Source: Candidatus Brennerbacteria bacterium | GTDB lineage: Bacteria > Patescibacteriota > Minisyncoccia > UBA6257 > GWB1-50-10 | Direction: 5' to 3' | Assembly (NCBI GenBank): GCA_043799565.1 | Contig: JAZDNP010000013.1 | Span: forward strand, 5,847 to 69,846 | DNA: 64,000 bases | In this document: positions 14,147 to 58,843 of the stretch, piece by piece | Layout of the letters: every line of letters begins with the position of its first letter | Numbering within the stretch: position 1 is the stretch's first letter | Position numbers and translations under genes: made by a program | Notes under the pieces: model-generated | Databases searched by the model: none | Told to the model about the DNA's origin: nothing | What the model saw: only the letters and a program-made list of their open reading frames with translations

Positions 14147-14147
14147 C

Positions 14148-43846: not shown

Positions 43847-44980
43847 CTAATCAAGTTCAAGCCGGTAGAGGAGGTCGGTGTAGCGGTCTATAAAATAGAC
43901 CGCGTTTTCGTTCGCGCGAACGCGCGAGGCATCAAATGTCGTTTCACCCACACTTCCCCACGGAGATGAGACGTCCTCAATTGAACGGGTTGAGGTTGCG
44001 ATGCTACCGAGCACAAAAACGTCCTCCGACCTAGTTTTTTGCATAAGGTAACTGTTCAATATGGCGTCGGTGTGCTCTGGCGGACCTTCTTTCGGTACGA
44101 AGCAGAAAAGCTTCATGTTATTTACCGCGCATTTGTCGGGGAATGTATAAAAAGGGAAAGCTACGGATCCTCCGAACGAACTATCAAGAAGCGAAGTTCC
44201 CTGTTCGCTTGTGAATTTCAAAAACGAATCGCGCGCTGTGGAAGCAGGGACAATCCACAGGTCCTGTGTGGGAGTGAAAAGCACGTTCAACGCGCGAGAA
44301 GACGGCTCCAGTTTCCATACGCGATTTTCAAAAAGCGAAGAAGGGCGCTCAAGGATAAACGTGTCTCCAGTTTTGGAGGTCACGAATATTACATCTTCCA
44401 TGCGGAAATCGCGTACCACCACCATATAAATAAGAGGTGTTTTTGATATGTCCACGAAGGAGAGGTTTGCGTCGTTCCCGCTCCGCACCGTTGCGATAAG
44501 CTCGTTCGGGTTCCTTCCCCACCCTGCATTTGTTATCTCTCGAGCAAGCGGACGCCATACCGAATCAACGGTATCAAAAATGGCCCATTGGGGAGAGGAA
44601 GGATTTCCGAAGGAAACAAGGAGACGACGTCCATCGGCGGACGGCTCTGTGCGGTTCAGAGCAGTGATGGCTTGGCGGGATATCTCAAGGTCCGGTCCGT
44701 CTTTTACCGCGTAGACGTAACCTTCAGGAGTGATGTAATAAACTTCCCCGGTTTCCGGGACAAGCCAGTAATCAAACGCCGTATGGTCGGATATCACGGT
44801 CGGCGTAGAAAGCGAGGAAGAGTTATTAGTTTCAGTTGATGTGGAAGTTGGAGCGCCGCCATTCCCCGGTGGGACGTTAGCTGGAGGTTCGGCAATAAAA
44901 AGCCACCAGAGGAAATAGATTACTACGCCGACCACTATTGCGATTCCGATTACGGTGAGAATTTTGTAAAGCGGTTTCAT
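43847..44980 (-). CDS. hypothetical membrane-anchored extracytoplasmic protein (last gene of the T4SS-like operon)
   Basis: N-terminal TM followed by a 340-aa extracytoplasmic domain with no recognisable family. Confidence 0.4.
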   Translation of the reverse strand: MKPLYKILTVIGIAIVVGVVIYFLWWLFIAEPPANVPPGNGGAPTSTSTETNNSSSLSTPTVISDHTAFDYWLVPETGEVYYITPEGYVYAVKDGPDLEISRQAITALNRTEPSADGRRLLVSFGNPSSPQWAIFDTVDSVWRPLAREITNAGWGRNPNELIATVRSGNDANLSFVDISKTPLIYMVVVRDFRMEDVIFVTSKTGDTFILERPSSLFENRVWKLEPSSRALNVLFTPTQDLWIVPASTARDSFLKFTSEQGTSLLDSSFGGSVAFPFYTFPDKCAVNNMKLFCFVPKEGPPEHTDAILNSYLMQKTRSEDVFVLGSIATSTRSIEDVSSPWGSVGETTFDASRVRANENAVYFIDRYTDLLYRLELD

Positions 44981-44986
44981 GATGAG

Positions 44987-46051
44987 CTATGGGCAACTCT
45001 TGGCGCTGAGGTGGAGGTGTCCCGCGCCGGCTTCATACCGCGCGCCATTACACTGTTGGTATCCGTTCGTGACTGCGAATCCCGCCGCGTCCGCCGCAGA
45101 GGTGAACTGCGCGAGGTATTGGCAATCCGTGCCAGAAAGGTATCTCCGGTTATCAATAATGACGGTCACATCCACGCTACACCCGTTGTAATGACCCGCC
45201 GACTCAAAAGAAGCTGTGGGCGGGTATGCCTCAATGATTCGCCATTTCATGACAATATCTCTCCCGAACAACCCCGCATCCGCAACCTTGATACCACTTG
45301 CTCCCGATATCGTTGTGTTTAATCGTGCTAGAGCGGAGTTGGTTTTCGGATTCACGATGCAATTTGATGGCTCTCCGCCCCATCGACACTTCCCCGGTTG
45401 CATAGGGAAAACTCCGTTAAGCTCGGCGCAGTTCGTGCAACTGGCGCGAATGATGCACGCGCGTAGTTGCGCGGGAGACGGTGCGGGCACGAGGGTGGTG
45501 CAGTATGCAAACTCACGCGCTCTTGTGGTTGACGCGTTTTGGAGTTCCTCGTCGGTGATTGGGAGTGTTTGATTCTCGCCGGGGATAAGTTGGTCAGCGG
45601 ACACGCCTTCTTTTTCAATGCCGCCGAGCTGGATTCTTTCTGGTCCCGCAATTTCTCCAAATCTTTGGGTAATCCGCGGGTTTACGGTGTTGAGAATGAG
45701 ATAGGAGCCAAAAAGAAGTACGATACCCCACATCGCCGACGTAATCATGTCTTTTCCTTCTTGCTGGCGGGTGGTGCTTCCTCCCGCGAATGTGTAAAAA
45801 AGCGAGCCGACGACGATAATACCTACCGCAAGTACGCCGGCAATGGCGAGTGCTATCTGATATACACGAGCGATATAAGCTGCGGGATTTGCCTCAATCC
45901 CAATATTGTTGTCGGAAACGCAGGAAATCCCTGTCGGGCACTGAATATCGGGCAAATCAAAGGATGCCGCAAGCGCGGGCAAATTTCCCGCAAGAAAGGC
46001 GACCGCAAAAACTATCGCAAAAACTATCGGAAAAAAAGGTTGATATTTCAT
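44987..46051 (-). CDS. VirB2/TrbC-like pilin candidate with a Cys-rich C-terminal domain
   Basis: Signal peptide, two adjacent hydrophobic helices as in T4SS pilins, then a ~200-aa tail carrying about 12 Cys. Confidence 0.4.
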   Translation of the reverse strand: MKYQPFFPIVFAIVFAVAFLAGNLPALAASFDLPDIQCPTGISCVSDNNIGIEANPAAYIARVYQIALAIAGVLAVGIIVVGSLFYTFAGGSTTRQQEGKDMITSAMWGIVLLFGSYLILNTVNPRITQRFGEIAGPERIQLGGIEKEGVSADQLIPGENQTLPITDEELQNASTTRAREFAYCTTLVPAPSPAQLRACIIRASCTNCAELNGVFPMQPGKCRWGGEPSNCIVNPKTNSALARLNTTISGASGIKVADAGLFGRDIVMKWRIIEAYPPTASFESAGHYNGCSVDVTVIIDNRRYLSGTDCQYLAQFTSAADAAGFAVTNGYQQCNGARYEAGAGHLHLSAKSCP

Positions 46052-46743
46052 GGTTCAATAGAAAATTGTGCACGCGTAGCCGCGATTTCTTGAAGGTTTC
46101 TCTGGTTTTGCGCTTCTAGAGAGACTGAGAATGTTCGCGGGGCGAGGTTGGAGCTTCCGGAGACGGTAAGTTCCGTGTCGCTTCCGACGCTTTGACGCAT
46201 TCCATCCACGGTCCATGCGAAAGAAAGGTCCGAAAGCGAGGAAAGGTTGAAAAAGAATGGCACGGCACGGAGCGTCATCGTGCCGCCGCTCCCTCTCCCT
46301 CCACGGTAAGGCGCATCGATAACCAGGATGGGTTGTACAGTCGGGATGCGGAGCGAGGTTTCGATTGTTTCCGCGCCGTGGAAAGCGGAAACGTGTACAA
46401 AGTGCGCATCACCGGGCCCTTTTGTCGCAGTAAATGTCGCCTGTTTCACACCGCGGCCGCCACCAATGAACTTTCCATCAACTTCCCACAATATCTCCGT
46501 CTGCGAAAGGTCCAACAACACCCCGTTCTTTGTCGCTTCCACTGCGACTGAAATGGGAGAGGTAAGCGAAGGGAGCGCTTTTCCTTTGAAAAAGGCCGGA
46601 TAGAAGTTGGAAGCTTTCCATGTAATGAACGCTTGGCTTAATGATGTCTGCGCGGAGACTCCCGCGTACCAGATTGCAATGGAAACGAGAACAGCTAAAG
46701 TGATGATAATGTTTTTTTTCATGCCGCTTTCTTTGCTCCCCAT
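46048..46743 (-). CDS. hypothetical secreted/anchored protein (T4SS-like operon)
   Basis: N-terminal TM; 231 aa; overlaps its neighbours by 4 nt and ~25 nt, consistent with operon packing. Confidence 0.4.
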   Translation of the reverse strand: MGSKESGMKKNIIITLAVLVSIAIWYAGVSAQTSLSQAFITWKASNFYPAFFKGKALPSLTSPISVAVEATKNGVLLDLSQTEILWEVDGKFIGGGRGVKQATFTATKGPGDAHFVHVSAFHGAETIETSLRIPTVQPILVIDAPYRGGRGSGGTMTLRAVPFFFNLSSLSDLSFAWTVDGMRQSVGSDTELTVSGSSNLAPRTFSVSLEAQNQRNLQEIAATRAQFSIEP

Positions 46744-47258
46744 TTTTCCTGAATCCTTTTACTTTGCGCTTCATGTTCTTCCTTCGTTAGCCCTTTTTTC
46801 TCATCGTTTCCCTCAACCTCTTCCCGCGCGGTGCGGTACATGGTACGCGCTTCCTTCGCCGCCGCGAATGTACCTCGTGTTTCCTTCACATCCTTCAGCT
46901 TTTTCACGTCCATTTTACCCAATGTAACTGCGGTAGTCACGAGGCCGAACTTCTCCGGGTGGTTTTCCATGTAGACCGAGGCAAGGAAAGTGAATATTTG
47001 GGTGGGAACGAACGGTATGATTTGCGTTGCAATTGGTACAAGGAATCGGCGAACAAGATTTGCGCTCGCAGTTGCGCCTTTTAGCTGGAACCAGAGCGTA
47101 AAGAGAAGCCAGGAGAGGGATTGGATGACGAACCCCCCCACGCCCGCGAGAAGATCGGCGAAGGCGCTTACAATATCAATGAGGAGCGCAATCATGCTCC
47201 CGAATATAATTTCCACTAGATTGAATTTTGGTCCGTCCATAAAATGATTATTGATCAA
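46719..47258 (-). CDS. small polytopic membrane protein (T4SS-like operon)
   Basis: 179 aa with three or four TM helices and a charged C-terminus. Confidence 0.4.
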   Translation of the reverse strand: MINNHFMDGPKFNLVEIIFGSMIALLIDIVSAFADLLAGVGGFVIQSLSWLLFTLWFQLKGATASANLVRRFLVPIATQIIPFVPTQIFTFLASVYMENHPEKFGLVTTAVTLGKMDVKKLKDVKETRGTFAAAKEARTMYRTAREEVEGNDEKKGLTKEEHEAQSKRIQEKWGAKKAA

Positions 47259-47261
47259 TGA

Positions 47262-49019
47262 TCATTGATTACTTTTCAACCCCTTTATCTCCAACATTTG
47301 CTCGGGGTTCGTGGTAATAATCTGATCCTCGGTGTAGGAGGCGATGATCTTGACCGCGACGTGTTTGAGTCCCGCAAAGAAGAGCCCCTCCCCCACCCCC
47401 GCCTCAAGGAGAAGCATCTTTTCTCCGTCGGTGAGGTCAAATGCGCCCGCTACCGCATCAATTGAGGTTGGCGATTGTTTCATAAGGAGCTGGATGGACG
47501 AGTTGGTGACGATGGGGCGCCCATATTCTGACCGGAGGAAATCCTCCACGTCCTGCGTAATGGTGGTGATGCCGAGGTAGTATTTCCTGGCGCGCTTTAC
47601 GAGGCCGAAGAGGAAAGACGCGGAGTCCTTATATTTCATCATCCACCACGCCTCATCAATGATGAGGAGGCGGCGCTTAAGTTCGGAGCGCACCAGATTC
47701 CACACGAAGTTCAGCACGATGTACATTGCGATAGGGCGAAGTTCCTCTTCTAGGTCGCGGATGGAGAAAACGATAAGGCGGTTTTTTACGTCAATGTTGG
47801 TCGGCGCGTTTGTGAATCCGGCGTAAGATCCCTTCACAAACTTTTCCAAACGTTGGCCAATACCGCGTCCGCCATCCGTGTTCGTCAGCACCGTTTGAAG
47901 ATCTCCCAAAAGCGGAGGATTCAATTCTTTGATACTGCCGAAGTTTTCCGCAGTGATGTCGCGGGATGCGTAGGTTTCGGTGATGGCGCGGTCCAAAAGT
48001 GAGTCCTCTTCGGGCGTTACCGCGCCGAGCATGAGTTTCACGAGGCCGGTAAGGTTTAGAACATGCGATTTGAAAACGTCCGCAGGCTCTTCCCCTTCCG
48101 GAATAAGCGGAATATCAAAAGGATTTATGTGGTTTGGTGAAGTGAGGGAAATCTTAAAATAGCTTCCGCCGACCGCGTTCGCAAGGTTTTGATACTCGTT
48201 CTCCGGGTCTATAACGATCACGTCGGTGCCGAGCATCATGGTGCGGAGGATCTCTAGTTTTGTTGCATACGACTTGCCGGAACCTGATTTTGCAAAAACC
48301 ACCGCGTTCGCATTTTCCAGCGAGAAGCGGTCAAAAATGATGAGCGATTGGTTGTGGAGATTAATGCCGTAGAGAATACCCTTGTCGGAGGTAAGATCGG
48401 GCGAGACGAACGGAAAAAGCGAAGAAACAGGGCCGGAATTCATCGGCGTATTAATGGAAAGCTTGTCCAGTCCGGTAGGGAGCGCCGAAAGGAAGGCCTC
48501 ATCCTGCCGGAAGAGCGCCGGTTTCACGTTCACAAGCCGTGATTCAAGAGTAGATTGTATTTTGTCCTCCAGTTTTGTAAGCTCCTCCACGGATTTCCCG
48601 TAGAGCGTGATGTAAACGCCAACCTTAAAGAGTTTTTCCTGCGCTTGTTGGAGCGTGTCGCGGAGGCTTTCTAGGTCACGGTATGCCGTTTCAAGCATGG
48701 GGTCCCGCACGAGCCCCTTCTCTTCCCGCTCCATTGTTTCCGCCTGCACTTGCGCCACTTTTTTGCGTAGGTTCTTAAGCGCCGTACCGGTGTCGGTTGG
48801 ATGGATGAAGATGGCGATATCAAGCATCTCCGGCATGTTGATTAGTGGAGAGAACCAGCCGCTCGCGACGTAACGTGGATAGGTGAAGAGAAAAAGAGTT
48901 TTTGTATAGTAGTCGCCCAACTTCAGATAATTGGACGACACTTCAGCGCCGGCAGGAGCAATAACACTTCCCATATCCTCGGAAGACGGTTCGTACGCTT
49001 TCGGTGTTTTTATCTCCAT
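47262..49019 (-). CDS. virB4: VirB4/TrbE-family T4SS ATPase, C-terminal NTPase part
   Basis: Walker A AKSGSGKS, Walker B/DEAW block LLIIDEAWWMM, and C-terminal TQDVEDF. Confidence 0.8.
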   Translation of the reverse strand: MEIKTPKAYEPSSEDMGSVIAPAGAEVSSNYLKLGDYYTKTLFLFTYPRYVASGWFSPLINMPEMLDIAIFIHPTDTGTALKNLRKKVAQVQAETMEREEKGLVRDPMLETAYRDLESLRDTLQQAQEKLFKVGVYITLYGKSVEELTKLEDKIQSTLESRLVNVKPALFRQDEAFLSALPTGLDKLSINTPMNSGPVSSLFPFVSPDLTSDKGILYGINLHNQSLIIFDRFSLENANAVVFAKSGSGKSYATKLEILRTMMLGTDVIVIDPENEYQNLANAVGGSYFKISLTSPNHINPFDIPLIPEGEEPADVFKSHVLNLTGLVKLMLGAVTPEEDSLLDRAITETYASRDITAENFGSIKELNPPLLGDLQTVLTNTDGGRGIGQRLEKFVKGSYAGFTNAPTNIDVKNRLIVFSIRDLEEELRPIAMYIVLNFVWNLVRSELKRRLLIIDEAWWMMKYKDSASFLFGLVKRARKYYLGITTITQDVEDFLRSEYGRPIVTNSSIQLLMKQSPTSIDAVAGAFDLTDGEKMLLLEAGVGEGLFFAGLKHVAVKIIASYTEDQIITTNPEQMLEIKGLKSNQ

Positions 49020-49023
49020 ATTG

Positions 49024-49671
49024 TTATTCTTTACTTACCACCCGCTTTCCCTCCACGAGTTCGGGATTATACAGGTTATAAAAGAGTTCCACCAAAGCAT
49101 CATTTTCCAACGGTGCCGCGCGAAGTCCTATTTGAGAAAGTCCATCTATCACCTGGTTTACGCGCCGTTCAAGTTGAGAAAGAGTTTCCTGCGAGCTTTC
49201 TTCGTGCAACGTTGAGCCAGGAGCAGCTTTCCTGAAGAGGGACAAAAGCCCTCCTGCCTTACCGGCGGGAATTATGGATTCGTACGGCACTACGGTAAAA
49301 AAAGTTTTTGAGATAATGGCATTTTCCTCCACAAACGTGCGGATGAATTCCACGTACTCGCCTATCTGTATCTTTAAAAGTTCGCTTGGTTCCTTCTCCA
49401 TATGTGTGCGCATGGAAGCAAGGTACGCGTCCACATTCACTTTGCGCGAGTGGATAAAGAACTGGACCGAAAAATCCAAGGTGTTGAGAAAACTTTGGAA
49501 ACTTCCGAGAATAAGTCCCTGTTCCGCCTCGGATTTCAGGTCAAAGTTTACACCGCTCACAATGAGTACACGGCGCACCCCCCCACTTTTTAAATACAGT
49601 ACGCCATCTCGTATCTCCTTTATATCAACGAGCGCTTGGGTCGGCGTGGTGGGTTCCTTCTGCATAGACAC
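49024..49671 (-). CDS. VirB4 N-terminal domain encoded as a separate ORF (split VirB4)
   Basis: The pattern LVDIKEIRDGVLYLKSGGVRRVLIVSGVNFDLKSEAEQ...FLNTLDFSVQFFIHSRK is typical of the VirB4/TrbE N-terminus. A stop and 11 nt separate it from the ATPase ORF, which is in a different frame. Confidence 0.55.
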   Translation of the reverse strand: MSMQKEPTTPTQALVDIKEIRDGVLYLKSGGVRRVLIVSGVNFDLKSEAEQGLILGSFQSFLNTLDFSVQFFIHSRKVNVDAYLASMRTHMEKEPSELLKIQIGEYVEFIRTFVEENAIISKTFFTVVPYESIIPAGKAGGLLSLFRKAAPGSTLHEESSQETLSQLERRVNQVIDGLSQIGLRAAPLENDALVELFYNLYNPELVEGKRVVSKE

Positions 49672-49683
49672 AGTTTATAGGCG

Positions 49684-50187
49684 TTACGTCTTATAATCCA
49701 CCCGCTTCGCGACTTTTTTCTCTCCCGTGAGATAGGTAACGACCTCGTATTGTTTTTCCTGTTTTTTCATTTCGGGAAGGCGAGAAAAAATCTTTCCCGT
49801 TGTGATTTGAAGTGCGAGAGATCTCAACGTTTCTTCTATCCCCATTTTCCTCCGAAGCGCTTCAATTTTTTGGAGCTCTGCGACCCCGGGAAGCGTAGTT
49901 TCGGGGAGCATGCGCGACCATGTGTACACGCGCGGTTTCCAGTAATACGCAAGCGCAGAGCGGAGCACTGCCGGGAGCGGTTGGGCATTGATTTTTATGA
50001 ATGCCAATCCGATAGCTATTGCGGCTACGAGAAGCGTGATAAGGAGCCAAAGAAAGAACGTGAAGACGTAGAAGGAGGCGAAGCTTATCCCCACCGCGGC
50101 GGCGAGATAGAGAAATTGGGGGAGCGTGAGGAACCCCACCACCTTTGGTTGTTCATCAATGAACTGCGGAATTTGGAATGTTGCCAT
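49684..50187 (-). CDS. PrgI/VirB3-like small membrane protein
   Basis: FLTLPQFLYLAAAVGISF followed by two TM helices; this layout immediately upstream of VirB4 is classic. Confidence 0.5.
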   Translation of the reverse strand: MATFQIPQFIDEQPKVVGFLTLPQFLYLAAAVGISFASFYVFTFFLWLLITLLVAAIAIGLAFIKINAQPLPAVLRSALAYYWKPRVYTWSRMLPETTLPGVAELQKIEALRRKMGIEETLRSLALQITTGKIFSRLPEMKKQEKQYEVVTYLTGEKKVAKRVDYKT

Positions 50188-50193
50188 AACGCA

Positions 50194-51138
50194 TTAACGA
50201 AGGTCTACCACATTTCCTTCTACATTAGGTAGCCCGCCTGTTCCTGAGGACAGCGGACTTATTTTGGGAAGAGGCGGAAGGGACTCGCTCTTTTTTATCT
50301 GAAGTGGCGTTTCTTTAGTCTGGGTAGAGGGTTGCTCAGGAATAAGCGGCGACATTGCGACTTTAGGTGCCACCAAAGTTTTCCCGAACGTTTCCAGATT
50401 GATGAATTCTCCGCCCGTACCGGGCGAGAGATTGGTGCGGTATTCGCTGTAATGTACCACCTTCCCCTCCTCTTTGGTTGGTTTGCTCGCTGGAGCTTTA
50501 GCGTCGGAGGGCGTTTCTATGGTTGCACGAGGTGCCGGGGCGAACTCCCCTTGTTTTGGTTTGAAAAGCCCGAAGGGAAGCGAAAATCCCCTCATTGATT
50601 CCTTTCTCGTTTCACCCGAGAGTGCCTTTTCTTCATGAAGGACGAACGGTGCGTTTGAGGGAGATGCCCCTTTTCCTGCCGAGGCGGGAATCAATACGGA
50701 GGAGGGGCGGTCCTTGAATCTGAGAAATGAAGGAGTCCCTAAGCCCCTGGGTTTTGATTCAGGAGATGACGATTCCCTCGTTTCGCGCACATCTTCTCCC
50801 GCAAGGGCAGGCTGGTAGAACTCATCGAGTTCTGTTTCAACTCGGGAGAACACCTTTCTCCCTATTTCCTCGGTGATAGATTGAGCGATCTTTGTATCGA
50901 GGTTCGCGCCTTGTTCGATCTCTCGCGCAAGGTCGGTGCGGTGGATGAACCCGAAGAACACCGCGGCGGTGAGCGCCAAAACTTTATCGGTTTTTTTTTG
51001 GTCAAGATGGTGAGCATCCGCGATTGACTGCAACACCCCGCCTATTTCAAGAGAAAATGCAAGGTTGCGGATTGACTCCGGCAGAGCATCAAGCCGTTCA
51101 AGAAATTTATTTTTCGATACGGTAAACATTCTCTGCAT
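50194..51138 (-). CDS. hypothetical protein with a disordered Pro/Ser-rich C-terminus (T4SS-like operon)
   Basis: 314-aa ORF with no recognisable motifs. Confidence 0.35.
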   Translation of the reverse strand: MQRMFTVSKNKFLERLDALPESIRNLAFSLEIGGVLQSIADAHHLDQKKTDKVLALTAAVFFGFIHRTDLAREIEQGANLDTKIAQSITEEIGRKVFSRVETELDEFYQPALAGEDVRETRESSSPESKPRGLGTPSFLRFKDRPSSVLIPASAGKGASPSNAPFVLHEEKALSGETRKESMRGFSLPFGLFKPKQGEFAPAPRATIETPSDAKAPASKPTKEEGKVVHYSEYRTNLSPGTGGEFINLETFGKTLVAPKVAMSPLIPEQPSTQTKETPLQIKKSESLPPLPKISPLSSGTGGLPNVEGNVVDLR

Positions 51139-51143
51139 TTCTT

Positions 51144-53114
51144 TTACGGCGTGCTAGGAGGTGGTGATGGTGGTGGAGGCGGTGCGGCTGCCGGTGTTGC
51201 GGGCGCCGCCGCGGTCCCTGTGTCGTAGAGACGGAGCGAAGCAATTTGGTTTTGCACTTTAGCGAGCTTGTCTGCTGCTTTCACATTCCCTTCAGCGATA
51301 AGTTGCGCTCCGACCGCATCAATCGTCACATCGAGTCGTTCAAACCCTGCGCCTTTGACGTTCCGGAAGAGCTTTGCGACGTCGGCAGGTACATTCACTG
51401 CGATTCCATGTACGAGCGCTTGGCGGAAGGCATCGCTCATTTCTTTCGTCGTGCCCGCCCCTAACTGTTCGATGATCGCTTTTCCAAAAGTGTCGTTTGT
51501 TGGGAGCTTCGGGATTTCATCCGGTTTGAGTTTCTCGATCCACGCCGCCATTGCATCGTCGAGTTTCTTTTTATCCTCCGGCTTTGACATATCACCAGAT
51601 CTCAATATATCGGCAGATGCGAGATCCATACCTGCGGCGACCTCAAACCCTTTCCACTGCCGCGATTCCTTTCCATAGTACGACTCGAAAACCTCCTTGT
51701 TCTTTTGCGTCACATTACCCAGTACATCAGGTTTCCCAGTAGTGCGATTTTGAATGAGTCCCACCGTGCCATTTTTCGCGAGGCGCTCCATAGCGGCGAC
51801 TTTCTCTGGAGCGGAAAGCGTATCCAGGTTTTTAGCAAGATGCGCATCCCCGTATTTCTTGAGCCGTTTGTCGGCATCATCGACAAGCCCGCGTCGCAGA
51901 ACGTCTGCCTGACCGCCTAACGCCATTCCCATGCGCTTAAAGCCTGGAATCCGCTGCAGCCTGCCTGCAAGGCCGGTTCCAAGCTTGGACTCGAGCGCTC
52001 GAGCGCCAGCTTGTTTTGCCTGTCTACCTGCCCACGCTTGGGCACCAGTCTTAGCTTTGTTTGCGATGGCCATACCAATATTTGCTCCCGCAACTCCCAT
52101 TTTCTGCGCAACGATGAGTCCACCAAGCATAATGCCAGCGAGTACAAACATTTGAACACCTTGGGACATGATGCTTATGAGGCCCGCATCAAAAAAATTG
52201 GAACCATCTGCAACGGGCGCAGGTTTTCCTCCCATAGCTTCCAGTGCCGCGAATGCGAGGTAGATGAAAAACGTTGCGATGGGTGCAAAAGTGGCCCACT
52301 TAATAAAATCTTTCCACCAATCTTGGAAGTAGTTTCCGAGGTTCGGCATGACCCAGAAGAGCCATATGATGGGTGCGGTAATACCGAGGAAGGTGAGATG
52401 CAGGTAGCGGAGCAGCAGCATAATAGCAAAAGTGCCGACGACCACAACGCTCAAAAATACGAATACGACATTAAAAATTTGGCCGGCGATGAGATTGAAA
52501 AGTCCTGCGCCGAAAGTACTGATGGCGCCTGCGGCACTTTCGAAGTTTTGCGGGTCGTTTAATCGCTGGGGATTGAATGCGCCTGCGAGCGCGGCGCCGA
52601 GGCCGTTAGGACTCGGAATCCGGTTGAGGAAAAATGCGGTAAAAACGTTCGTGAACTGAAGCACCGCGCCTGCGATCGCAAGCGAGAAATTCACTAGAAT
52701 TGCCGCCGCAATGAGCCGGACCAAAAGCTTCTGGCTTCCATATTTTTCAACGCGAAACATTACACCGAAAGCGATGACGATAATAATAAGCACGAACCCG
52801 AGATTTGCGAGGTCGCGCATAATCTCCCATCCGATTTCAACAAGCTTGTTCTGCGGGTCGAACACTTGGAGGTTCAGATCCATCATGATCCCCGCGATCC
52901 ACGAAAAAAGATTCAGCACGAGTCCTCCGAGGAACCCAATGATGTATGCAACCACGCCAAACGCTTTCCCTATGACGTAACCGGCAATATCACCGATATT
53001 AAAAAGATCGCCGAGGAAGGATGTTTGTGCGTGGGCTGCGAGTGGAAACGCAAGTATTCCTCCTGCAATAAGGAGGAAGAAGAACACGCGAGAATATGAG
53101 GAAAACAATTTCAT
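51144..53114 (-). CDS. VirB6/TrbL-like polytopic membrane protein
   Basis: Signal peptide, then about eight TM helices and a large C-terminal soluble region. Start taken at MKLFSSY; the track ORF extends 36 codons upstream. Confidence 0.5.
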   Translation of the reverse strand: MKLFSSYSRVFFFLLIAGGILAFPLAAHAQTSFLGDLFNIGDIAGYVIGKAFGVVAYIIGFLGGLVLNLFSWIAGIMMDLNLQVFDPQNKLVEIGWEIMRDLANLGFVLIIIVIAFGVMFRVEKYGSQKLLVRLIAAAILVNFSLAIAGAVLQFTNVFTAFFLNRIPSPNGLGAALAGAFNPQRLNDPQNFESAAGAISTFGAGLFNLIAGQIFNVVFVFLSVVVVGTFAIMLLLRYLHLTFLGITAPIIWLFWVMPNLGNYFQDWWKDFIKWATFAPIATFFIYLAFAALEAMGGKPAPVADGSNFFDAGLISIMSQGVQMFVLAGIMLGGLIVAQKMGVAGANIGMAIANKAKTGAQAWAGRQAKQAGARALESKLGTGLAGRLQRIPGFKRMGMALGGQADVLRRGLVDDADKRLKKYGDAHLAKNLDTLSAPEKVAAMERLAKNGTVGLIQNRTTGKPDVLGNVTQKNKEVFESYYGKESRQWKGFEVAAGMDLASADILRSGDMSKPEDKKKLDDAMAAWIEKLKPDEIPKLPTNDTFGKAIIEQLGAGTTKEMSDAFRQALVHGIAVNVPADVAKLFRNVKGAGFERLDVTIDAVGAQLIAEGNVKAADKLAKVQNQIASLRLYDTGTAAAPATPAAAPPPPPSPPPSTP

Positions 53115-53118
53115 GCGG

Positions 53119-55209
53119 TTATGAAGACGGTGGCGGCGTCCAACTGCATGAGTAGGAACCGAGCTGGCAGGCTTGGCGGGCCTGGCCGGTCGTTGTGAGC
53201 TGCTGGGTAAGGAGCGTTTCAAGCTCTAGCTGGCTCACGATGGTGGTCGCAAGGTAGCTCTGTGTGGTACCAAGCGCGCTCACAAATGACTGAAGCTCGG
53301 ATTCCAAAAGATTGGAATTAGCATTGAATTCCCGCTCAATATCTGCCGTTCCTTCAAGCGTTTTTGTGAGATTGGTCCGGTTGGTAGTGAACTGGACGGA
53401 ACGAATTTGAGCGAGAATGAGCGTGGAGGAAGTGCTGCCGCATGCCGCGCCGGAGTTTATATTGTGAGGAATTTCACAATCTACTGAAAGGGCCGTGGAA
53501 GTCGCAATAAGTTCTTTATTGAGCGCAATGAGGCGAGTGAGTGTTGTACTTGCGGACGCCACTTTGGTGCGTATGTCGGGAATTTGCCGTCGGATTTCGG
53601 TTTTGAGCTGTGCGGTGAAGTTTGTAGAAGATGTGAACTCGGAACCGTAGCCGCTGAATGGATCAGCGTCGGTGTATTGTGTCGGGGCCCGTCCCGTGGT
53701 GGTTTCACTGCGCAATCTGGTCGGGCTTCCACGGAGCCCCTTCACCCCCTCTTTGATGATGCGGTTTATTGCGGCATCAAATACCGCATTGGAGTATTTT
53801 GAAAGGTCATTTGCACTTGCGAGGTGTTGAGTGTCGGCGATGAGCGCTACGCCTGCAATTTGCTGCGTGCCTGCGGGTGGAATGGTAATTTCCTCACGAG
53901 AGCATGTGAAGACGACGGAGCCGCCTCCCAAGGCGCTCGCAACACTTTCGTACGCCGCACTTCCCGACGCCGGAGGAAAGAGTGGGTTGGGATAGTCGAA
54001 ATCACTACTGTTCACAGCTCGCCTAGTTTCCTTTGAGCGGCCGCTTAACGTAAGCGCAAAACTTGTCGCGGTCCATTCCAAACACTGGACGACTGGTTTG
54101 TAGCCACCACCCGCGGATGCAAGAAGGGCCGCTTCCCCTTTTTTCTTTGCGGTTTGGCGCATAACCTCGTCCTGCGTGGCAAAGAGTGAACCAGCGAAAT
54201 TATTGTTAGGACTGAACGATTCTGCGTATGCAAGCGGTCCACCCGCAGAAAAGTCGTCATAAAATCCTTGGATATTTTCTACAATATCATCCAACGTGCA
54301 GCTCGCACTTTCCGAAAATTTTGGGATGGGAGCGAGAAGTGGGGGTATGCGAGCGCGGAGCGGCGAGCAGAGTTCCGCAAGGCCAAGTTCACGTGCGGTG
54401 TCGCCGACCGCCGCCTGCCCCGCTTCCTCAAGAAAGTCGCCGAAGTTTGTGATGAATTTGGGGTCGCGTCCATCCGATATCCAACCGACAATGTCGTCGG
54501 TCATGCGATCCAAAAGGCGCTTCCGGAATTTTCCAAGCGCGATTTTAAATGCCTCATCTTTAATCGCCTTCATGCAGTTTCCAAACTGTATCTTTTCCGT
54601 TTCTTTAAGTTGCTTGCCCGTTTCCTCCACTTGCTGTGGCCCCCCTCCTCCCCCGCCGAAGATGTCGCCAAGCCCGAGCGCATCTCCAATACCGCTAAGT
54701 GCGCTACCCAAGCCAGGAATGGCCAAATCAAGCCCCAAACTCGCTAAATTTTTAATCCCGAGCTCTTTCCCCAGTAATTTAACCGCACCTTTTCCTAAAT
54801 CCTTAACCGCGCCTAAGGCCTTATCTCCTATTTGGTCAACCGCTGCGTCCACAGTGCATTGCTTCACCGCATTTGCAGTAGATGGAGTTTCGCCGGTGCT
54901 TATAGGAGCAGGGGCAACCGGAGATACGCGGCGGTTACAAGCGAAAATGGGGAACGTAAAGATTCTCTTGTAATACTCAAAGTCCGGAGAGCCGATCGCT
55001 GGAGGAACTTCAGGGTCTTCGTACGGGAAAAGAAAATTTACCGGCACTACAATTTCCGAAAAAATCCCATCGCTCTTTCTTGTGCCGCTTATTTTCCAAT
55101 CAAGGCAAGTGTCACCCGCCGTTTGTGCAAAAACTGAGGGAATGGTGCCAAAAGGCGCAATGAGCATCGCGGCTACGAGTAGGGATAAAATTTTGAAGAA
55201 AATACGCAT
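53119..55209 (-). CDS. large secreted protein (T4SS-like operon), unknown function
   Basis: Signal peptide; 696 aa with Gly-rich linkers and a coiled-coil-like C-terminus. Confidence 0.4.
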   Translation of the reverse strand: MRIFFKILSLLVAAMLIAPFGTIPSVFAQTAGDTCLDWKISGTRKSDGIFSEIVVPVNFLFPYEDPEVPPAIGSPDFEYYKRIFTFPIFACNRRVSPVAPAPISTGETPSTANAVKQCTVDAAVDQIGDKALGAVKDLGKGAVKLLGKELGIKNLASLGLDLAIPGLGSALSGIGDALGLGDIFGGGGGGPQQVEETGKQLKETEKIQFGNCMKAIKDEAFKIALGKFRKRLLDRMTDDIVGWISDGRDPKFITNFGDFLEEAGQAAVGDTARELGLAELCSPLRARIPPLLAPIPKFSESASCTLDDIVENIQGFYDDFSAGGPLAYAESFSPNNNFAGSLFATQDEVMRQTAKKKGEAALLASAGGGYKPVVQCLEWTATSFALTLSGRSKETRRAVNSSDFDYPNPLFPPASGSAAYESVASALGGGSVVFTCSREEITIPPAGTQQIAGVALIADTQHLASANDLSKYSNAVFDAAINRIIKEGVKGLRGSPTRLRSETTTGRAPTQYTDADPFSGYGSEFTSSTNFTAQLKTEIRRQIPDIRTKVASASTTLTRLIALNKELIATSTALSVDCEIPHNINSGAACGSTSSTLILAQIRSVQFTTNRTNLTKTLEGTADIEREFNANSNLLESELQSFVSALGTTQSYLATTIVSQLELETLLTQQLTTTGQARQACQLGSYSCSWTPPPSS

Positions 55210-55212
55210 GAA

Positions 55213-55983
55213 TTAAAGATTCGCGCTTTTCAGATTTGCTACCAGAGTTACCATAAGCGCATCTTCCTCGTCCGCGGTTATGGAAAGCGAATCTACCGCG
55301 GCTACAACCTTCAACGGGTCCTCCCCGCTTTGAAGGATGTGGCTTGCAATCGTCGCGCGCTTTTGCCATAAGTTCATGAGTCCAAGGTGAAATGGAACGA
55401 GCGGCGAAGGGACGGTAATGGTAAGAAGGTCGCCCGCGTAGGCGGCCATTGCGTTGCGATGTAGTCGGAGCGGTGTTTCATCCCCCTCGCTTACAAACTT
55501 TGCGACCGCAGTCAGAAGAAACTCATTCACATTCCGAAAACGTTCGGCTTGAATTTGCGCGAGAGCGACGAAGTAACGTGCAAGCTCCTCTTTGTCTTTG
55601 AGCGGCGCGGTGCGGAGATCCTGTACCGTGTATGTCTTGAAAATTAAAGGAATCTCCACAACTTTTGCGATGATGGACTCCACCGTGCCTTCCGGCGGGA
55701 GCGCAATAGCTCTAGCGTCGCTTCCTGGCTGGTTCAGCTTGAGTATTTCTTCGCCGTAGCGCTGTGCAACGAGTTCGGTAAGATTCGTATCAGCGCCCTC
55801 TCCCAAAAAGCCCTGGAGGGCGGAGCCGCTTTCTCCGTAGGCGAATGCGGAACCGTTCCCTCCTCCCGCAGAAATAGTGAGAGCTTCGTTGCTGCTAACT
55901 GAAGTGGCAGCAAGCCGAGTAATAGAAAATGCACCAACCAATCCTCCCGCGAGGACGAGTATCGCGATGGTTTTCCTTCTCAT
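55213..55983 (-). CDS. secreted hypothetical protein (first visible gene of the T4SS-like operon)
   Basis: Signal peptide; 256-aa ORF. Confidence 0.4.
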   Translation of the reverse strand: MRRKTIAILVLAGGLVGAFSITRLAATSVSSNEALTISAGGGNGSAFAYGESGSALQGFLGEGADTNLTELVAQRYGEEILKLNQPGSDARAIALPPEGTVESIIAKVVEIPLIFKTYTVQDLRTAPLKDKEELARYFVALAQIQAERFRNVNEFLLTAVAKFVSEGDETPLRLHRNAMAAYAGDLLTITVPSPLVPFHLGLMNLWQKRATIASHILQSGEDPLKVVAAVDSLSITADEEDALMVTLVANLKSANL

Positions 55984-58677: not shown

Positions 58678-58843
58678 CCCGTTTAGAAATAATAGAGCAT
58701 GCTCGACCGCTTTGTGTTTGCGAGTTTCTGCTTTTGGAGGTTCATAAACATTATGGTAATGCTACCAAGATTTCTAACGGGATTCATGTCGTTAAAAATA
58801 GTCCGCCGAGAGGCGGATGTCAAAGCCCGTATTATGGCGTTCC

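What the first reader, a model, noticed from the sequence alone, without database searches (positions are those of the whole stretch)
43847..55983. Eleven-gene T4SS-like membrane apparatus operon without relaxase or coupling protein
Eleven co-directional, tightly packed or overlapping genes on the minus strand encode the following.
- A VirB4/TrbE ATPase split into two ORFs.
- A PrgI/VirB3-like protein directly upstream of VirB4.
- A VirB6/TrbL-like 8-TM protein.
- A pilin-like protein.
- Five further secreted or membrane proteins with no recognisable family.
No VirD4 coupling ATPase, relaxase, VirB11 or oriT-like region is present in the window. That composition suggests a DNA-uptake or cell-contact apparatus rather than a conjugative element, and half of its components are uncharacterised.
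Basis: partly seen in the sequence, partly recalled or inferred. Interest (0 to 1): 0.65.

Follow-up and report, generated by a model that had tools for sequence, protein, structure and literature searches.

The report
Known Patescibacteria chromosomal type IV secretion system
This is the chromosomal, relaxase-free type IV secretion gene cluster that nearly all ultrasmall Patescibacteria (CPR) carry next to their replication origin; it was described in 2023 and 2025, so the cluster is real and correctly read but is not a new kind of system.

Summary
Eleven minus-strand genes (43847-55983) are packed with gaps of -25 to +12 nt.

**Assigned components**
- VirB4 ATPase (NCBIfam CD1110 family, above its cutoff).
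- A separate TrsD-like protein that corresponds to the VirB4 N-terminus.
- PrgI/VirB3.
- A TrbL/VirB6-type polytopic protein.
- One VirB2-like pilin.

**Unassigned components**
Six further proteins have no family.

**Context**
- The window comes from a Candidatus Brennerbacteria MAG (Parcubacteria).
- The arrangement comM-ksgA-[11 genes]-jag/yidC-dnaA-dnaN recurs in dozens of related genomes.
- VirB4 has a median identity of 75% to relatives, which is more conserved than DnaA.
- No coupling protein, relaxase or VirB1 prototype was found in the window or within 10 kb of virB4 in 80 related loci.

**Match to the literature**
This is the "Patescibacteria-clade T4SS" of Quiñonero-Coronel et al. 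2025. Its Saccharibacteria counterpart is essential for epibiotic growth (Wang et al. 2023). DNA uptake is the less favoured option.

**Details I add**
- The "split" VirB4 is a stable gene fission: separate in 70 of 75 relatives and fused in 5.
- The pilin carries a C-terminal Hedgehog/DD-peptidase (LAS)-like zinc-peptidase domain. Orthologues carry other variable domains at that position.
- g10 belongs to a very large family with no Pfam model.

Interest is low to moderate.

The parts
55213..55983 (-). g11: 256-aa protein with one N-terminal hydrophobic segment (signal or anchor); no family assigned
   Evidence: ORF. One TM-like segment at residues 6-24. Homologues at the same position in 32 related loci, median identity 26%. 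No Pfam, NCBIfam or PDB-sequence match.
53119..55209 (-). g10: 696-aa secreted, Cys-rich (12 Cys) protein; member of a very large uncharacterised family found directly upstream of VirB6
   Evidence: Signal-like N-terminus. Homologues are hypothetical proteins, almost all from Patescibacteria, with no Pfam domain. A profile search found 4,884 cluster representatives at E<=1e-3 and 1,247 at <=1e-30. The AF2 model is poor (pLDDT 59, pTM 0.32); only the C-terminal three-helix bundle 531-682 is confident. Foldseek against PDB returned only generic helical bundles.
51144..53114 (-). g9: VirB6/TrbL-type polytopic membrane protein (656 aa) with about 7-8 hydrophobic helices followed by a hydrophilic C-terminal extension of about 320 aa
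   Evidence: Identical NCBI protein P0052 (V1885_02915) and most of 120 homologues carry precomputed PF19590, which names TrbL_3. PF04610 TrbL hits 4 of 31 orthologues, best E 1.1e-6. pGO1 TrsL is the top hhalign target out of 25 (probability 15%). Hydropathy.
50194..51138 (-). g8: 314-aa protein without hydrophobic segments; helical N-terminal domain of about 110 aa plus a Pro/Ser-rich tail with short conserved motifs; unassigned
   Evidence: conserved motifs include VHYSE and EGNxIDLR. No Pfam or PDB match. Present between VirB6 and PrgI in 56 related loci.
49684..50187 (-). g7: PrgI/VirB3-family small membrane protein (167 aa, two hydrophobic helices)
   Evidence: Pfam PF12666 PrgI: 30.2 bits, above the gathering score of 27. 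Weak TraL hit, E 0.0056. Two TM-like segments. Directly upstream of TrsD/VirB4 in 72 related loci.
49024..49671 (-). g6: TrsD-like protein (215 aa), equivalent to the detached N-terminal part of VirB4
   Evidence: NCBIfam: VirB4_plasma positions 99-219 (E 4.5e-9), TrsD NF041427 (E 2e-6, 27.8 bits, below its cutoff of 200), CD1110 VirB4 positions 5-118 (E 6e-5). hhalign against pGO1 TrsD is the best of 25 targets (probability 44.5%). It is a separate ORF in 70 of 75 relatives and fused to VirB4 in 5, where it aligns to residues 1-215. The Jorgensenbacteria orthologue carries PF26593 TraC-like.
47262..49019 (-). g5: VirB4-family ATPase body (585 aa) with Walker A (AKSGSGKS) and Walker B (LLIIDE) motifs
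   Evidence: NF045971 conju_CD1110: 371.8 bits against cutoff 325. Pfam P-loop_TraG 98.7 bits and AAA_10. 26% identity to pCF10 PrgJ residues 226-772. Motifs read from the sequence. 64-92% identical to more than 534 Patescibacteria relatives.
46719..47258 (-). g4: small membrane protein (179 aa, 2-3 hydrophobic helices, charged C-terminal tail); unassigned
   Evidence: No family. A homologue of about 115-175 aa sits directly after virB4 in 28 related loci. This is the position of trsF/traF in pGO1-type systems, but no sequence similarity was detected.
46048..46743 (-). g3: 231-aa membrane-anchored or secreted protein with a beta-rich, probably Ig-like ectodomain
   Evidence: One N-terminal hydrophobic segment. 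Six of 39 orthologues hit Pfam BiPBP_C (best E 3e-4) and a few hit PKD-like families. No PDB-sequence match. Present in 68 related loci.
44987..46051 (-). g2: signal peptide, VirB2-like pilin hairpin (helices 56-88 and 93-123), Cys-rich linker, and a C-terminal Hedgehog/DD-peptidase (LAS)-like zinc-peptidase domain (about 230-354; invariant E274, H287, D294, H347)
   Evidence: PF18895 T4SS_pilin at 24.1 bits, below the 26.6 cutoff; homologues carry PF18895 and are named 'pilin'. AF2 model mean pLDDT 77, with the C-domain at 76-97. Foldseek, all hits sub-threshold: Aeropyrum conjugative pilin 8dfu (TMt 0.71), and the M15 peptidases ChiX 5opz (probability 0.75) and LysB4 6akv. The C-domain profile hits Sonic/Indian hedgehog N-domains at E about 2e-3, aligning EAFPP..HYNGCxVD with Shh TEGW..HYEGRAVD. 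It is the only pilin hairpin in the window.
43847..44980 (-). g1: 377-aa membrane-anchored protein with a low-complexity linker and a beta-rich (possibly beta-propeller) ectodomain; unassigned
   Evidence: One N-terminal TM segment. Only scattered sub-threshold propeller hits (PD40, WDR5, Kelch). It is the last gene of the row in 54 related loci.

Best explanation
**What it is.** This is the vertically inherited, chromosomal 'Patescibacteria-clade' type IV secretion system, derived from the Gram-positive MPF_FATA conjugation machinery. Here it lies in a Candidatus Brennerbacteria (Parcubacteria/Paceibacteria) genome, at the conserved site beside ksgA and the dnaA/dnaN origin region.

**Shown here.**
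- The cluster encodes a cytoplasmic-membrane core: PrgI/VirB3 (g7), a two-piece VirB4 ATPase (TrsD-like g6 plus g5) and a TrbL/VirB6-type channel protein (g9).
- It encodes one VirB2-like pilin-hairpin protein (g2) and six lineage-specific proteins.
- Four of those six (g1, g3, g10, g11) have signal or anchor sequences.
- No relaxase, coupling protein or canonical VirB1 is nearby.

**Inferred mechanism.**
- VirB4, held at the membrane by VirB3 and VirB6, uses ATP to pull the pilin hairpin out of the membrane. This builds a short surface filament or conduit at the contact site with the host cell on which these epibionts depend.
- The zinc-peptidase-like head on the pilin protein, together with the Cys-rich, Ig-like and beta-rich exported proteins, opens cell wall and holds the contact.
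- The apparatus serves host-dependent growth, through exchange of proteins or other macromolecules with the host. It does not serve conjugation.
- The cargo and the direction of transport are not known.
For: **Component assignments.**

**Source organism.** P0001, P0033 and P0052 are 100% identical NCBI proteins V1885_02880, V1885_02920 and V1885_02915 of a Candidatus Brennerbacteria MAG. Its lineage is Patescibacteria / Parcubacteria.

**Relatives.** More than 534 VirB4 relatives were found. The best 80 are 64-92% identical, and almost all come from MAGs named as Patescibacteria/Parcubacteria lineages or left unclassified.

**Synteny.** The order comM-ksgA-g11..g1 | jag,yidC | dnaA,dnaN,PBP1A is conserved across Jorgensen-, Brenner-, Wolfe-, Lipton-, Harrison- and Colwellbacteria loci.

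**Conservation.** VirB4 median identity is 75%, higher than DnaA (66-68%), DnaN (49%) and YidC (48%). The exported accessory proteins are at 26-36%.

**No island signal.** GC content is 0.49-0.53 in the cluster and 0.52-0.55 in the flanks.

**Missing conjugation genes.** VirD4, relaxase and VirB1 prototypes are absent from the window and all 80 loci, with VirB4 positive controls hitting 81 of 81.

**Literature.**
- PMC12102498 describes exactly this system: TrsD as the most frequent VirB4 partner, PrgI, VirB6, VirB2-like pilins, no relaxase, and proximity to dnaA/dnaN/ksgA in Paceibacteria.
- The Southlakia T4SS and its pilins are essential for epibiotic growth and lack coupling and relaxase proteins (PMC10633639; PMC12857230).
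- Tubular structures at a host interface were interpreted as possible T4SS pili (bioRxiv 10.64898/2026.06.21.733656).
Against: - No function has been tested in any Parcubacteria member. Essentiality is known only for a Saccharibacteria system with a different accessory gene set (a six-pilin array and lysozyme/peptidase genes).
- The VirB6 assignment rests on a precomputed TrbL_3 hit and on orthologues. My own hmmscan of the window protein found nothing.
- The pilin Pfam score is below its cutoff.
- The peptidase-like domain is supported only by borderline scores: Hedgehog E about 2e-3, with the 1.5e-4 top hit inflated by a His-tag, and Foldseek E above 0.1.
- No VirB8-like component was found.
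- A pilus has never been shown for this clade.
- A T4CP-like gene elsewhere in the genome cannot be excluded. The 2025 survey finds VirD4-profile hits in most CPR genomes, far from virB4.
Confidence: 0.85

Rival explanations
1. It is a nucleic-acid uptake machine, analogous to the H. pylori ComB T4SS or the archaeal Ced system. The T4SS would run inward to import host DNA or RNA, for recombination or as a nucleotide source.
For: - It lacks a T4CP and a relaxase, as ComB does.
- g5 gives weak NCBIfam hits to CedB (E 3e-13) and CedD.
- comM, which by general knowledge encodes a transformation-associated helicase, lies upstream, separated from g11 only by ksgA (gaps of 1 and 6 nt). It is syntenic in at least 25 relatives.
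- pnp lies 4 kb upstream.
- The 2025 survey notes comF, recG and radA near the T4SS in class ABY1.
- A 2026 preprint links VirB4 and PNPase to host-RNA feeding.
Against: - In Southlakia, competence needs T4P and ComEC. A comEC deletion abolishes competence but not viability, while the T4SS is essential. T4SS essentiality is therefore not explained by transformation.
- The CedB and CedD hits are generic VirB4/HerA ATPase similarity, far below their cutoffs (49 bits against 700).
- comM is separated from ksgA by 388 nt in Jorgensenbacteria GWA1_48_11. The adjacency may therefore be only origin-proximal housekeeping synteny.
Confidence: 0.15
2. It is part of a conjugative or integrative mobile element, or a decaying remnant of one. 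The relaxase, T4CP and oriT would lie outside the window.
For: - VirB4 is closest to the CD1110 family of Gram-positive conjugative transposons.
- The PrgI-TrsD-VirB4 gene order mirrors trsC-trsD-trsE of pGO1.
- A tyrosine recombinase gene lies at 63018-63932.
Against: - Both flanks are housekeeping genes.
- The same insertion site and gene order occur across several candidate phyla-level Parcubacteria lineages.
- VirB4 is more conserved than DnaA, the opposite of a decaying remnant.
- GC content shows no shift.
- No T4CP or relaxase lies within 10 kb in any of 80 relatives.
- Only 109 relaxases were found in 3,035 CPR genomes, and 15 of them lie near virB4.
Confidence: 0.03
3. It is a Ptl-like, T4CP-independent protein export system. 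Its main job would be to release or inject Sec-exported effector proteins, such as the Cys-rich g10 and the peptidase-headed g2, into or onto the host.
For: - Five of the eleven proteins have signal or anchor sequences, and two of them have 12 cysteines each.
- T4CP-less effector translocators exist: Bordetella Ptl and Brucella VirB (PMC12857230 section 20; PMC12102498).
- Wang 2023 suggests the system 'may instead export proteins'.
Against: - In a monoderm, Sec-exported proteins are already outside the membrane, so a T4SS is not obviously needed to release them.
- No toxin or effector domain was recognised apart from the peptidase-like domain.
- This rival overlaps with, rather than excludes, the best explanation.
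Confidence: 0.25

Closest known systems
Patescibacteria-clade T4SS, Paceibacteria arrangement (Quiñonero-Coronel et al. 2025, Microb Genom, PMC12102498)
   Same: - It has VirB4 with a separate TrsD-like partner, PrgI/VirB3, VirB6 and a VirB2-like pilin (PF18895) next to virB4.
- It has no relaxase and no nearby T4CP.
- It is chromosomal and sits next to dnaA, dnaN and ksgA (searches compared).
   Different: Nothing essential differs. Details not mentioned in that paper's main text:
- the pilin hairpin is fused to a Hedgehog/DD-peptidase-like domain;
- TrsD-VirB4 fusions occur in some relatives;
- a conserved set of six unassigned neighbours is present.
Southlakia epibionticum ML1 T4SS, SEML1_0006-0019 (Wang et al. 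2023, Cell, PMC10633639)
   Same: - It is a monoderm-type T4SS with VirB3, VirB4, VirB6, TrsD and VirB2-like pilins.
- It has no recognisable coupling protein or relaxase in the cluster.
- It is thought to act at the epibiont-host interface.
   Different: - Southlakia has an array of six divergent pilins, plus lysozyme and peptidase genes downstream of virB4. This locus has a single pilin gene, with the peptidase-like domain on the same polypeptide.
- Essentiality was shown only there.
Gram-positive conjugative MPF_FATA systems: pGO1 trs (TrsC-TrsD-TrsE...TrsL) and pCF10 prg/pcf (PrgH-PrgI-PrgJ)
   Same: - The gene order VirB3-like, TrsD-like, VirB4 is the same as in pGO1.
- VirB4 belongs to the CD1110 family.
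- g6 resembles TrsD and g9 resembles TrsL as the top hhalign targets.
- No outer-membrane core components are present.
   Different: - No T4CP (TrsK/PcfC), relaxase, topoisomerase, SLT/CHAP VirB1 (TrsG/PrgK), VirB8-like protein (PrgL, TrsH-type) or LPXTG adhesin is present.
- The location is chromosomal and fixed, not on a plasmid or ICE.
- It has a VirB2-like pilin, which Gram-positive systems generally lack.
T4CP-less T4SSs: Bordetella Ptl, Brucella VirB, Helicobacter ComB (DNA uptake)
   Same: They work without a coupling protein and a relaxase and serve non-conjugative functions. Ptl and Brucella VirB are cited from the reviews read here. ComB is cited from general knowledge.
   Different: These are diderm MPF_T systems with a VirB7/9/10 outer-membrane core and VirB8, and their VirB4 proteins belong to another clade.
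LAS (Hedgehog/DD-peptidase, MEROPS M15-type) cell-wall peptidases such as ChiX and the phage endolysin LysB4 (comparison applies to the g2 C-terminal domain only)
   Same: - The H-x6-D and H-x-H zinc-ligand motifs are conserved.
- The Hedgehog N-domain is hit with the motif aligned.
- ChiX and LysB4 are the best low-rmsd Foldseek hits.
   Different: - All scores are sub-threshold.
- The domain is fused to a T4SS pilin hairpin through a Cys-rich linker.
- Activity and substrate are untested.

Membership tests
Type IV secretion system (VirB4-based), Patescibacteria clade within MPF_FATA | VirB4-family ATPase with intact nucleotide-binding motifs | tested here: met
   NF045971 scores 371.8 bits against a cutoff of 325. 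P-loop_TraG scores 98.7 bits. Walker A is AKSGSGKS and Walker B is LLIIDE.
Type IV secretion system (VirB4-based), Patescibacteria clade within MPF_FATA | VirB4 groups with Patescibacteria VirB4 proteins rather than with other T4SS classes | tested here: inconclusive
   No tree was built. Indirect support: more than 534 relatives, of which the best 80 are 64-92% identical and almost all from Patescibacteria-named or unclassified MAGs. Identity to pCF10 PrgJ and pGO1 TrsE is only 24-26%. The best curated family is the Gram-positive CD1110 type.
Type IV secretion system (VirB4-based), Patescibacteria clade within MPF_FATA | Separate TrsD-like protein (VirB4 N-terminal homologue) next to virB4 | tested here: met
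   g6 matches TrsD (E 2e-6, below the curated cutoff), VirB4_plasma (E 4.5e-9) and CD1110 positions 5-118. It is colinear with residues 1-215 of fused orthologues. It is a separate ORF in 70 of 75 relatives.
Type IV secretion system (VirB4-based), Patescibacteria clade within MPF_FATA | VirB3/PrgI-type small membrane protein adjacent to virB4 | tested here: met
   PF12666 scores 30.2 bits against a gathering score of 27. Two TM segments are present.
Type IV secretion system (VirB4-based), Patescibacteria clade within MPF_FATA | VirB6/TrbL-type polytopic membrane protein | tested here: met
   Precomputed PF19590 (TrbL_3) is recorded on the identical protein P0052 and on most homologues. PF04610 hits 4 of 31 orthologues. 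There are about 7-8 hydrophobic helices. Caveat: direct hmmscan of the window protein against the Pfam copy at hand gave no hit.
Type IV secretion system (VirB4-based), Patescibacteria clade within MPF_FATA | VirB2-like pilin near virB4 | tested here: inconclusive
   PF18895 scores 24.1 bits, below the 26.6 cutoff, for the window protein. Homologues carry PF18895. The model shows a two-helix hairpin, and Foldseek finds the Aeropyrum conjugative pilin with TMt 0.71 but E 3.2.
Type IV secretion system (VirB4-based), Patescibacteria clade within MPF_FATA | Chromosomal location near dnaA/dnaN/ksgA, as reported for Paceibacteria | tested here: met
   ksgA lies 6 nt upstream. jag/yidC, dnaA and dnaN are immediately downstream. 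The arrangement is syntenic in dozens of relatives.
Type IV secretion system (VirB4-based), Patescibacteria clade within MPF_FATA | VirB8-like (NTF2-fold) bitopic protein. This is typical of monoderm T4SSs and is rarely detected in CPR. | tested here: not met
   Profiles of g3, g11 and g1 gave no VirB8, TraM or PrgL hit in PDB sequences or Pfam. hhalign against PrgL, TrsH and PrgD was negative. Structures of these three proteins were not predicted, so a fold-level match is not excluded.
Conjugative element (plasmid or ICE mating-pair formation plus DNA processing) | Relaxase (MOB) gene with oriT | tested here: not met
   No relaxase domain was seen among the window genes, either in the ORFs scanned against Pfam or in the rest read by eye. 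tblastn with PcfG, Nes and MobV gave 0 hits in the window and 80 loci. oriT itself cannot be tested without a relaxase family.
Conjugative element (plasmid or ICE mating-pair formation plus DNA processing) | VirD4/TcpA-type coupling protein | tested here: not met
   None is present in the window. PcfC and TrsK tblastn gave 0 hits in the window and 80 loci. The rest of the genome was not available.
Conjugative element (plasmid or ICE mating-pair formation plus DNA processing) | Mobility signatures: variable insertion site, composition shift, integrase at the border | tested here: not met
   The site is fixed between ksgA and jag across lineages. GC content is 0.49-0.53 in the cluster and 0.52-0.55 in the flanks. 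The nearest recombinase gene is 7 kb away, beyond pnp.
LAS / Hedgehog-DD-peptidase zinc peptidases (g2 C-terminal domain) | H-x(3-6)-D and (H-x-)H zinc ligands on the Hh/DD-peptidase fold | tested here: inconclusive

The most novel reading that the evidence does not exclude
**Reading.** The apparatus is a housekeeping-grade feeding organelle rather than a secretion system.
- The VirB4/VirB3/VirB6 core would assemble a filament from pilin-hairpin proteins.
- The lineage-variable C-terminal heads of these proteins (here a Hedgehog/DD-peptidase-like wall peptidase, in relatives SLT-like or other Cys-rich domains) would cut through the host's wall.
- The conduit would then be used to import host macromolecules, such as RNA or DNA, that these biosynthetically deficient cells need.

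**Observations this would account for.**
- VirB4 is more conserved than DnaA.
- No coupling protein is needed.
- The cluster sits at the origin beside comM and near pnp.
Probability: 0.15. Interest if true: 0.75.

Novelty: already known. Interest (0 to 1): 0.3.

Why it matters
- **The system.** The Patescibacteria T4SS is one of the few conserved envelope machines of a lineage estimated at about a quarter of bacterial diversity. It is essential in the one member where it could be tested. What it transports is an open question.
- **This locus.** It adds no new kind of system. It is a clean Parcubacteria example, with all eleven genes and their orthologues delimited.
- **Three usable details.**
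  1. The TrsD/VirB4 pair is a true fission of one VirB4, because fused orthologues exist.
  2. The pilin-hairpin protein is modular. Its C-terminal domain varies, and here it looks like a zinc wall-peptidase. This offers a candidate for the 'missing VirB1' and a biochemically testable handle.
  3. The protein upstream of VirB6 belongs to a family of at least 4,884 sequence clusters that has no Pfam model.

Tried and rejected
**Exact-sequence look-ups.** Look-ups of g5 and g9 in the contig index found nothing. The source was identified from identical NCBI proteins instead.

**Profile against pCF10/pGO1 proteins.** I ran hhalign of each family profile against 25 pCF10/pGO1 transfer proteins.
- Only g6-TrsD (44.5%) and g9-TrsL (15%) stood out.
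- There was no signal for g1, g2, g3, g4, g8, g10 or g11 against PrgC-M, PcfA-C, TrsA-L, or the VirB8-like and VirB1-like prototypes.

**Profile searches of PDB sequences.**
- g9, g3, g11, g1 and g8 gave only chance-level hits.
- The g9 hits were low-complexity coiled-coil matches to its C-terminal tail.

**Pfam scans of all orthologues.**
- g1: scattered propeller repeats, one member each.
- g3: BiPBP_C/PKD-like in a few members.
- g11 and g8: nothing.

**g10 structure.** The model was too poor (pLDDT 59) and Foldseek returned generic helical bundles. Ten long members of its family showed no informative fusion domains, apart from one fn3.

**Promoter and terminator scan.** Counts were at chance level. 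The best promoter-like site (58823-58795, minus strand) lies upstream of comM.

**Rejected ideas.**
- A frameshifted VirB4 pseudogene, because the split is conserved in 70 of 75 relatives.
- A pilin array, because the window has only one hairpin gene.
- An unannotated 2-kb region at 15-17 kb. It turned out to be infC, rpmI and rplT read in the wrong frame by my greedy ORF picker.

Full report

Yes. Eleven ORFs occupy 43847-55983 on the minus strand. Gaps between neighbours range from -25 to +12 nt.

One boundary needs correcting. The VirB6-like gene starts at the ATG at 53114, not at the TTG at 53222.
- That start gives the 656-aa protein NCBI annotates (P0052, 100% identical).
- It leaves a 4-nt gap to the upstream gene instead of a 100-nt overlap.

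The tight packing does not stop at 55983.
- ksgA (55990-56805) follows after 6 nt, and comM (56807-58522) after 1 nt.
- The 'eleven-gene operon' is therefore delimited by function, not by spacing.
- The best promoter-like site lies upstream of comM, but the scan as a whole is at chance level.

**2. Where does the window come from?**

Three cluster proteins are 100% identical to NCBI proteins V1885_02880, V1885_02915 and V1885_02920. These belong to a 'Candidatus Brennerbacteria bacterium' MAG, on a contig of 120,775 bp. The lineage is Patescibacteria group / Parcubacteria group.

The rest of the window is ordinary housekeeping:
- aminoacyl-tRNA synthetases, RNase J, ClpB-like, Pol I, PBP1A;
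- tmRNA with smpB, and infC-rpmI-rplT.

The cluster sits between ksgA/comM/pnp on one side and jag/yidC, dnaA and dnaN on the other, that is, at the replication-origin region. GC content shows no island signature.

**3. Components with a family**

*g5, VirB4 (47262-49019)*
- NCBIfam NF045971 'VirB4-like conjugal transfer ATPase, CD1110 family' scores 371.8 bits against a cutoff of 325.
- Pfam P-loop_TraG scores 98.7 bits.
- Walker A and B motifs are intact.
- The match covers only profile positions 183-732.

*g6, TrsD-like (49024-49671)*
- It supplies the missing N-terminus of VirB4: positions 5-118 of the same profile.
- It also matches TrsD/TraD (E 2e-6) and VirB4_plasma (E 4.5e-9).
- pGO1 TrsD is its best hhalign target.
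- The split is not a sequencing frameshift. The two parts are separate ORFs in 70 of 75 related loci.
- In 5 relatives they form a single ORF of 716-793 aa. There g6 aligns to residues 1-215, and g5 follows colinearly from about residue 154-230 to the C-terminal end.

*g7, PrgI/VirB3 (49684-50187)*
- It passes the Pfam PrgI gathering score (30.2 against 27).
- It has two hydrophobic helices.

*g9, VirB6/TrbL*
- It has about 7-8 hydrophobic helices and a hydrophilic tail of about 320 aa.
- The identical database protein and most of 120 homologues carry PF19590. Another tool output names this TrbL_3.
- Four of 31 orthologues also hit PF04610 TrbL.
- pGO1 TrsL is the top hhalign target.
- My own hmmscan of the window protein was negative, so this assignment rests on the precomputed hit and on orthology.

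*g2, VirB2-like pilin*
- It has a signal peptide and a two-helix hairpin.
- PF18895 T4SS_pilin scores just below its cutoff (24.1 against 26.6), but homologues carry it.
- The AF2 model is of fair quality, with mean pLDDT 77.
- The hairpin resembles an archaeal conjugative pilin in Foldseek (TMt 0.71, not significant).
- It is the only pilin hairpin in the window.

**4. The unassigned six**

| Gene | What the sequence shows | Search results |
|---|---|---|
| g1 | N-terminal anchor, beta-rich ectodomain | Scattered sub-threshold propeller hits only |
| g3 | N-terminal anchor, beta-rich | BiPBP_C/PKD-like hits in a minority of orthologues |
| g4 | Small membrane protein, 2-3 helices, directly after virB4 | None |
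| g8 | No hydrophobic segment; mostly low complexity with short conserved motifs | None |
| g10 | Secreted, Cys-rich | See below |
| g11 | N-terminal hydrophobic segment | None |

For g10:
- Its family has 4,884 representatives at E<=1e-3 among 1.84 billion cluster representatives, and no Pfam model.
- Its model was too poor to interpret.

All six have positional orthologues in the related loci. No VirB8-like protein was detected by sequence methods.

**5. A detail worth recording: the pilin has an enzyme-like head**

After the hairpin and a Cys-rich linker, g2 carries a well-modelled domain (pLDDT 76-97).

- **Motifs.** E274, H287-x6-D294 and H347 are invariant (EAFPP...HYNGCxVD...HLH) in 14 homologues. 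H-x6-D together with H-x-H is the zinc-ligand pattern of LAS (Hedgehog/DD-peptidase, M15-type) enzymes; this point is from general knowledge.
- **Profile search.** A profile of the domain hits about 20 Sonic/Indian hedgehog N-domain entries at E about 2e-3, with the motif aligned to the Shh zinc site. The best E-value, 1.5e-4, is inflated by alignment to a His-tag.
- **Fold search.** The best low-rmsd Foldseek hits are two M15 L-Ala-D-Glu peptidases, ChiX and LysB4, both sub-threshold.

I rate the assignment 'probable, not proven'.

Only 12 of 56 positional orthologues keep this motif. The others have different Cys-rich C-terminal domains. Some database homologues have three tandem hairpins followed by an SLT-like CES...GLFQ domain.

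Canonical VirB1 prototypes (PrgK, TrsG) are absent from the window and all related loci. This head is therefore a candidate functional substitute for VirB1, or a tool against the host wall.

**6. Comparative genomics**

- VirB4 has more than 534 relatives in GTDB species genomes. The 80 best are 64-92% identical.
- The order comM-ksgA-g11-g10-g9-g8-g7-g6-g5-g4-g3-g2-g1, then jag/yidC on the other strand, then dnaA-dnaN-PBP1A, recurs in loci named Jorgensen-, Brenner-, Wolfe-, Lipton-, Harrison- and Colwellbacteria.
- Median identity of VirB4 to these relatives is 75%. That is higher than DnaA (66-68%), PBP1A (55%), DnaN (49%) and YidC (48%). The exported accessory proteins are at 26-36%.

This pattern indicates a vertically inherited core function with fast-evolving surface parts. 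It is not the pattern of a mobile element.

**7. Conjugation genes**

- None of the window's genes is a relaxase or a coupling protein.
- tblastn with pCF10/pGO1 coupling proteins (PcfC, TrsK) and relaxases (PcfG, Nes, MobV) gave no hit in the window or the 80 loci. The VirB4 controls hit 81 of 81.
- The one VirB11-superfamily ATPase is a PilB-type T2SSE+MshEN protein, 13 kb away.
- I could not inspect the rest of the genome.

**8. What is known**

This is the system described by Quiñonero-Coronel et al. 2025 (PMC12102498):
- VirB4 is present in 2,417 of 3,035 CPR genomes.
- Nearly all form a monophyletic clade nested in MPF_FATA.
- TrsD is the most frequent partner. PrgI, VirB6 and VirB2-like pilins lie nearby.
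- Relaxases are almost absent, and T4CP hits are rarely nearby.
- In Paceibacteria and Microgenomatia the cluster lies close to dnaA, dnaN and ksgA.

Wang et al. 2023 (PMC10633639) showed by Tn-seq that the Southlakia T4SS and its pilins are essential for epibiotic growth and lack coupling and relaxase proteins.

A 2025 review (PMC12857230) stresses two points:
- A comEC deletion abolishes competence but not viability.
- The review speculates about a pilus conduit for signal exchange or uptake.

A 2026 preprint reports tubular structures at a host interface that may be T4SS pili.

**9. Most likely mechanism**

*Shown:* the membrane core (VirB3, two-piece VirB4, VirB6), one pilin-hairpin protein and several exported proteins are co-encoded and co-conserved. 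DNA-processing parts are absent.

*Inferred:*
- VirB4 extracts the hairpin protein from the membrane to build a surface filament or conduit at the host contact. This follows the established role of VirB4 in pilus biogenesis.
- The peptidase-like head and the Ig-like, beta-rich and Cys-rich proteins open wall and stabilise the contact.
- The structure supports host-dependent growth.

Cargo and direction are unknown.

I put identity and general role at about 0.85. I put the pilus-assembly-centred mechanism at roughly 0.4-0.5.

*Rivals:*

| Rival | Confidence | Basis |
|---|---|---|
| Inward nucleic-acid transport | 0.15 | Hinted by comM/pnp proximity and the preprint; weakened by the comEC result |
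| Ptl-like protein export | 0.25 | Overlaps with the best explanation |
| Mobile-element remnant | 0.03 | Contradicted by synteny and conservation |

**10. Verdict**

- Novelty: already known.
- Interest: 0.3.

The residual value lies in three details: the evidence that TrsD/VirB4 is a gene fission, the modular pilin with an enzyme-like head, and the large unmodelled g10 family.

Noticed in passing
window 40780-42167 (-), frameshift at the T6 run 41189-41194 (+ strand): dnaA is split into two ORFs (334 aa and 129 aa). Relatives read ...KVQKNIRELEG... through this point, and the window has an A6 run on the coding strand where seven A's are needed. DnaA is a single ORF of 450-523 aa in all 44 related loci. 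This is most likely a homopolymer assembly error rather than a pseudogene.
   Followed up: yes
window 44987-46051 (-), residues about 150-354 of g2; homologues P0002-P0028: The T4SS pilin-hairpin protein carries a C-terminal Hedgehog/DD-peptidase (LAS)-like domain with invariant E274, H287-x6-D294 and H347. Only 12 of 56 positional orthologues keep the motif, and the others have unrelated Cys-rich C-domains. The pilin therefore looks like a modular carrier of variable extracellular heads.
   Followed up: partly
proteins P0010, P0011, P0012 (homologues of g2): These proteins have three tandem pilin hairpins in one polypeptide, followed by a domain with lytic-transglycosylase-like motifs (CES...GLFQ). 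This is another pilin-hydrolase fusion. It was not verified by profile search.
   Followed up: no
loci L065, L066, L069, L079, L080 (VirB4 ORFs of 716-793 aa): In five more distant Parcubacteria relatives (for example Colwellbacteria and GWA2_47_8b), the TrsD-like part and VirB4 form one ORF. The window's g6 and g5 align colinearly to it. This shows that TrsD plus VirB4 is a fission, or fusion, of a single VirB4.
   Followed up: yes
window 53119-55209 (-), g10: The family of this secreted Cys-rich protein has 4,884 cluster representatives at E<=1e-3 (1,247 at <=1e-30) among 1.84 billion, and no Pfam model. The window copy has an extra N-terminal stretch of about 100 aa that includes a small beta domain.
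   Followed up: partly
window 47262-49019 compared with neighbours, across 78 related loci: VirB4 (median identity 75%) is more conserved than DnaA (66-68%), DnaN (49%), YidC (48%), PBP1A (55%) and KsgA (38%) in the same loci.
   Followed up: yes
window 29106-30833 (+): A PilB-type ATPase (T2SSE 377.7 bits, plus an MshEN N-domain) stands alone. I saw no obvious pilC, pilM or pilin genes next to it.
   Followed up: no
window 56807-58522 (-) and 58340-58843: The comM ORF as listed has an N-terminal extension of about 60-80 aa before the ChlI domain, which starts at residue 81. The real start is probably further downstream, which would leave up to about 500 bp of apparently non-coding DNA before the next gene. 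This stretch holds the best promoter-like site (58823-58795), overlapped by a terminator-like hairpin (58817-58802).
   Followed up: partly
window 58844-59977 (-): A 377-aa Pro-rich protein with one hydrophobic segment has no Pfam family. A tblastn match was found in only one of the 80 related loci (L001).
   Followed up: no
window 13709-14466 (+): smpB is directly followed by the tmRNA gene (tag peptide ANDNVAAPAYAFA). This is an ordinary arrangement.
   Followed up: yes
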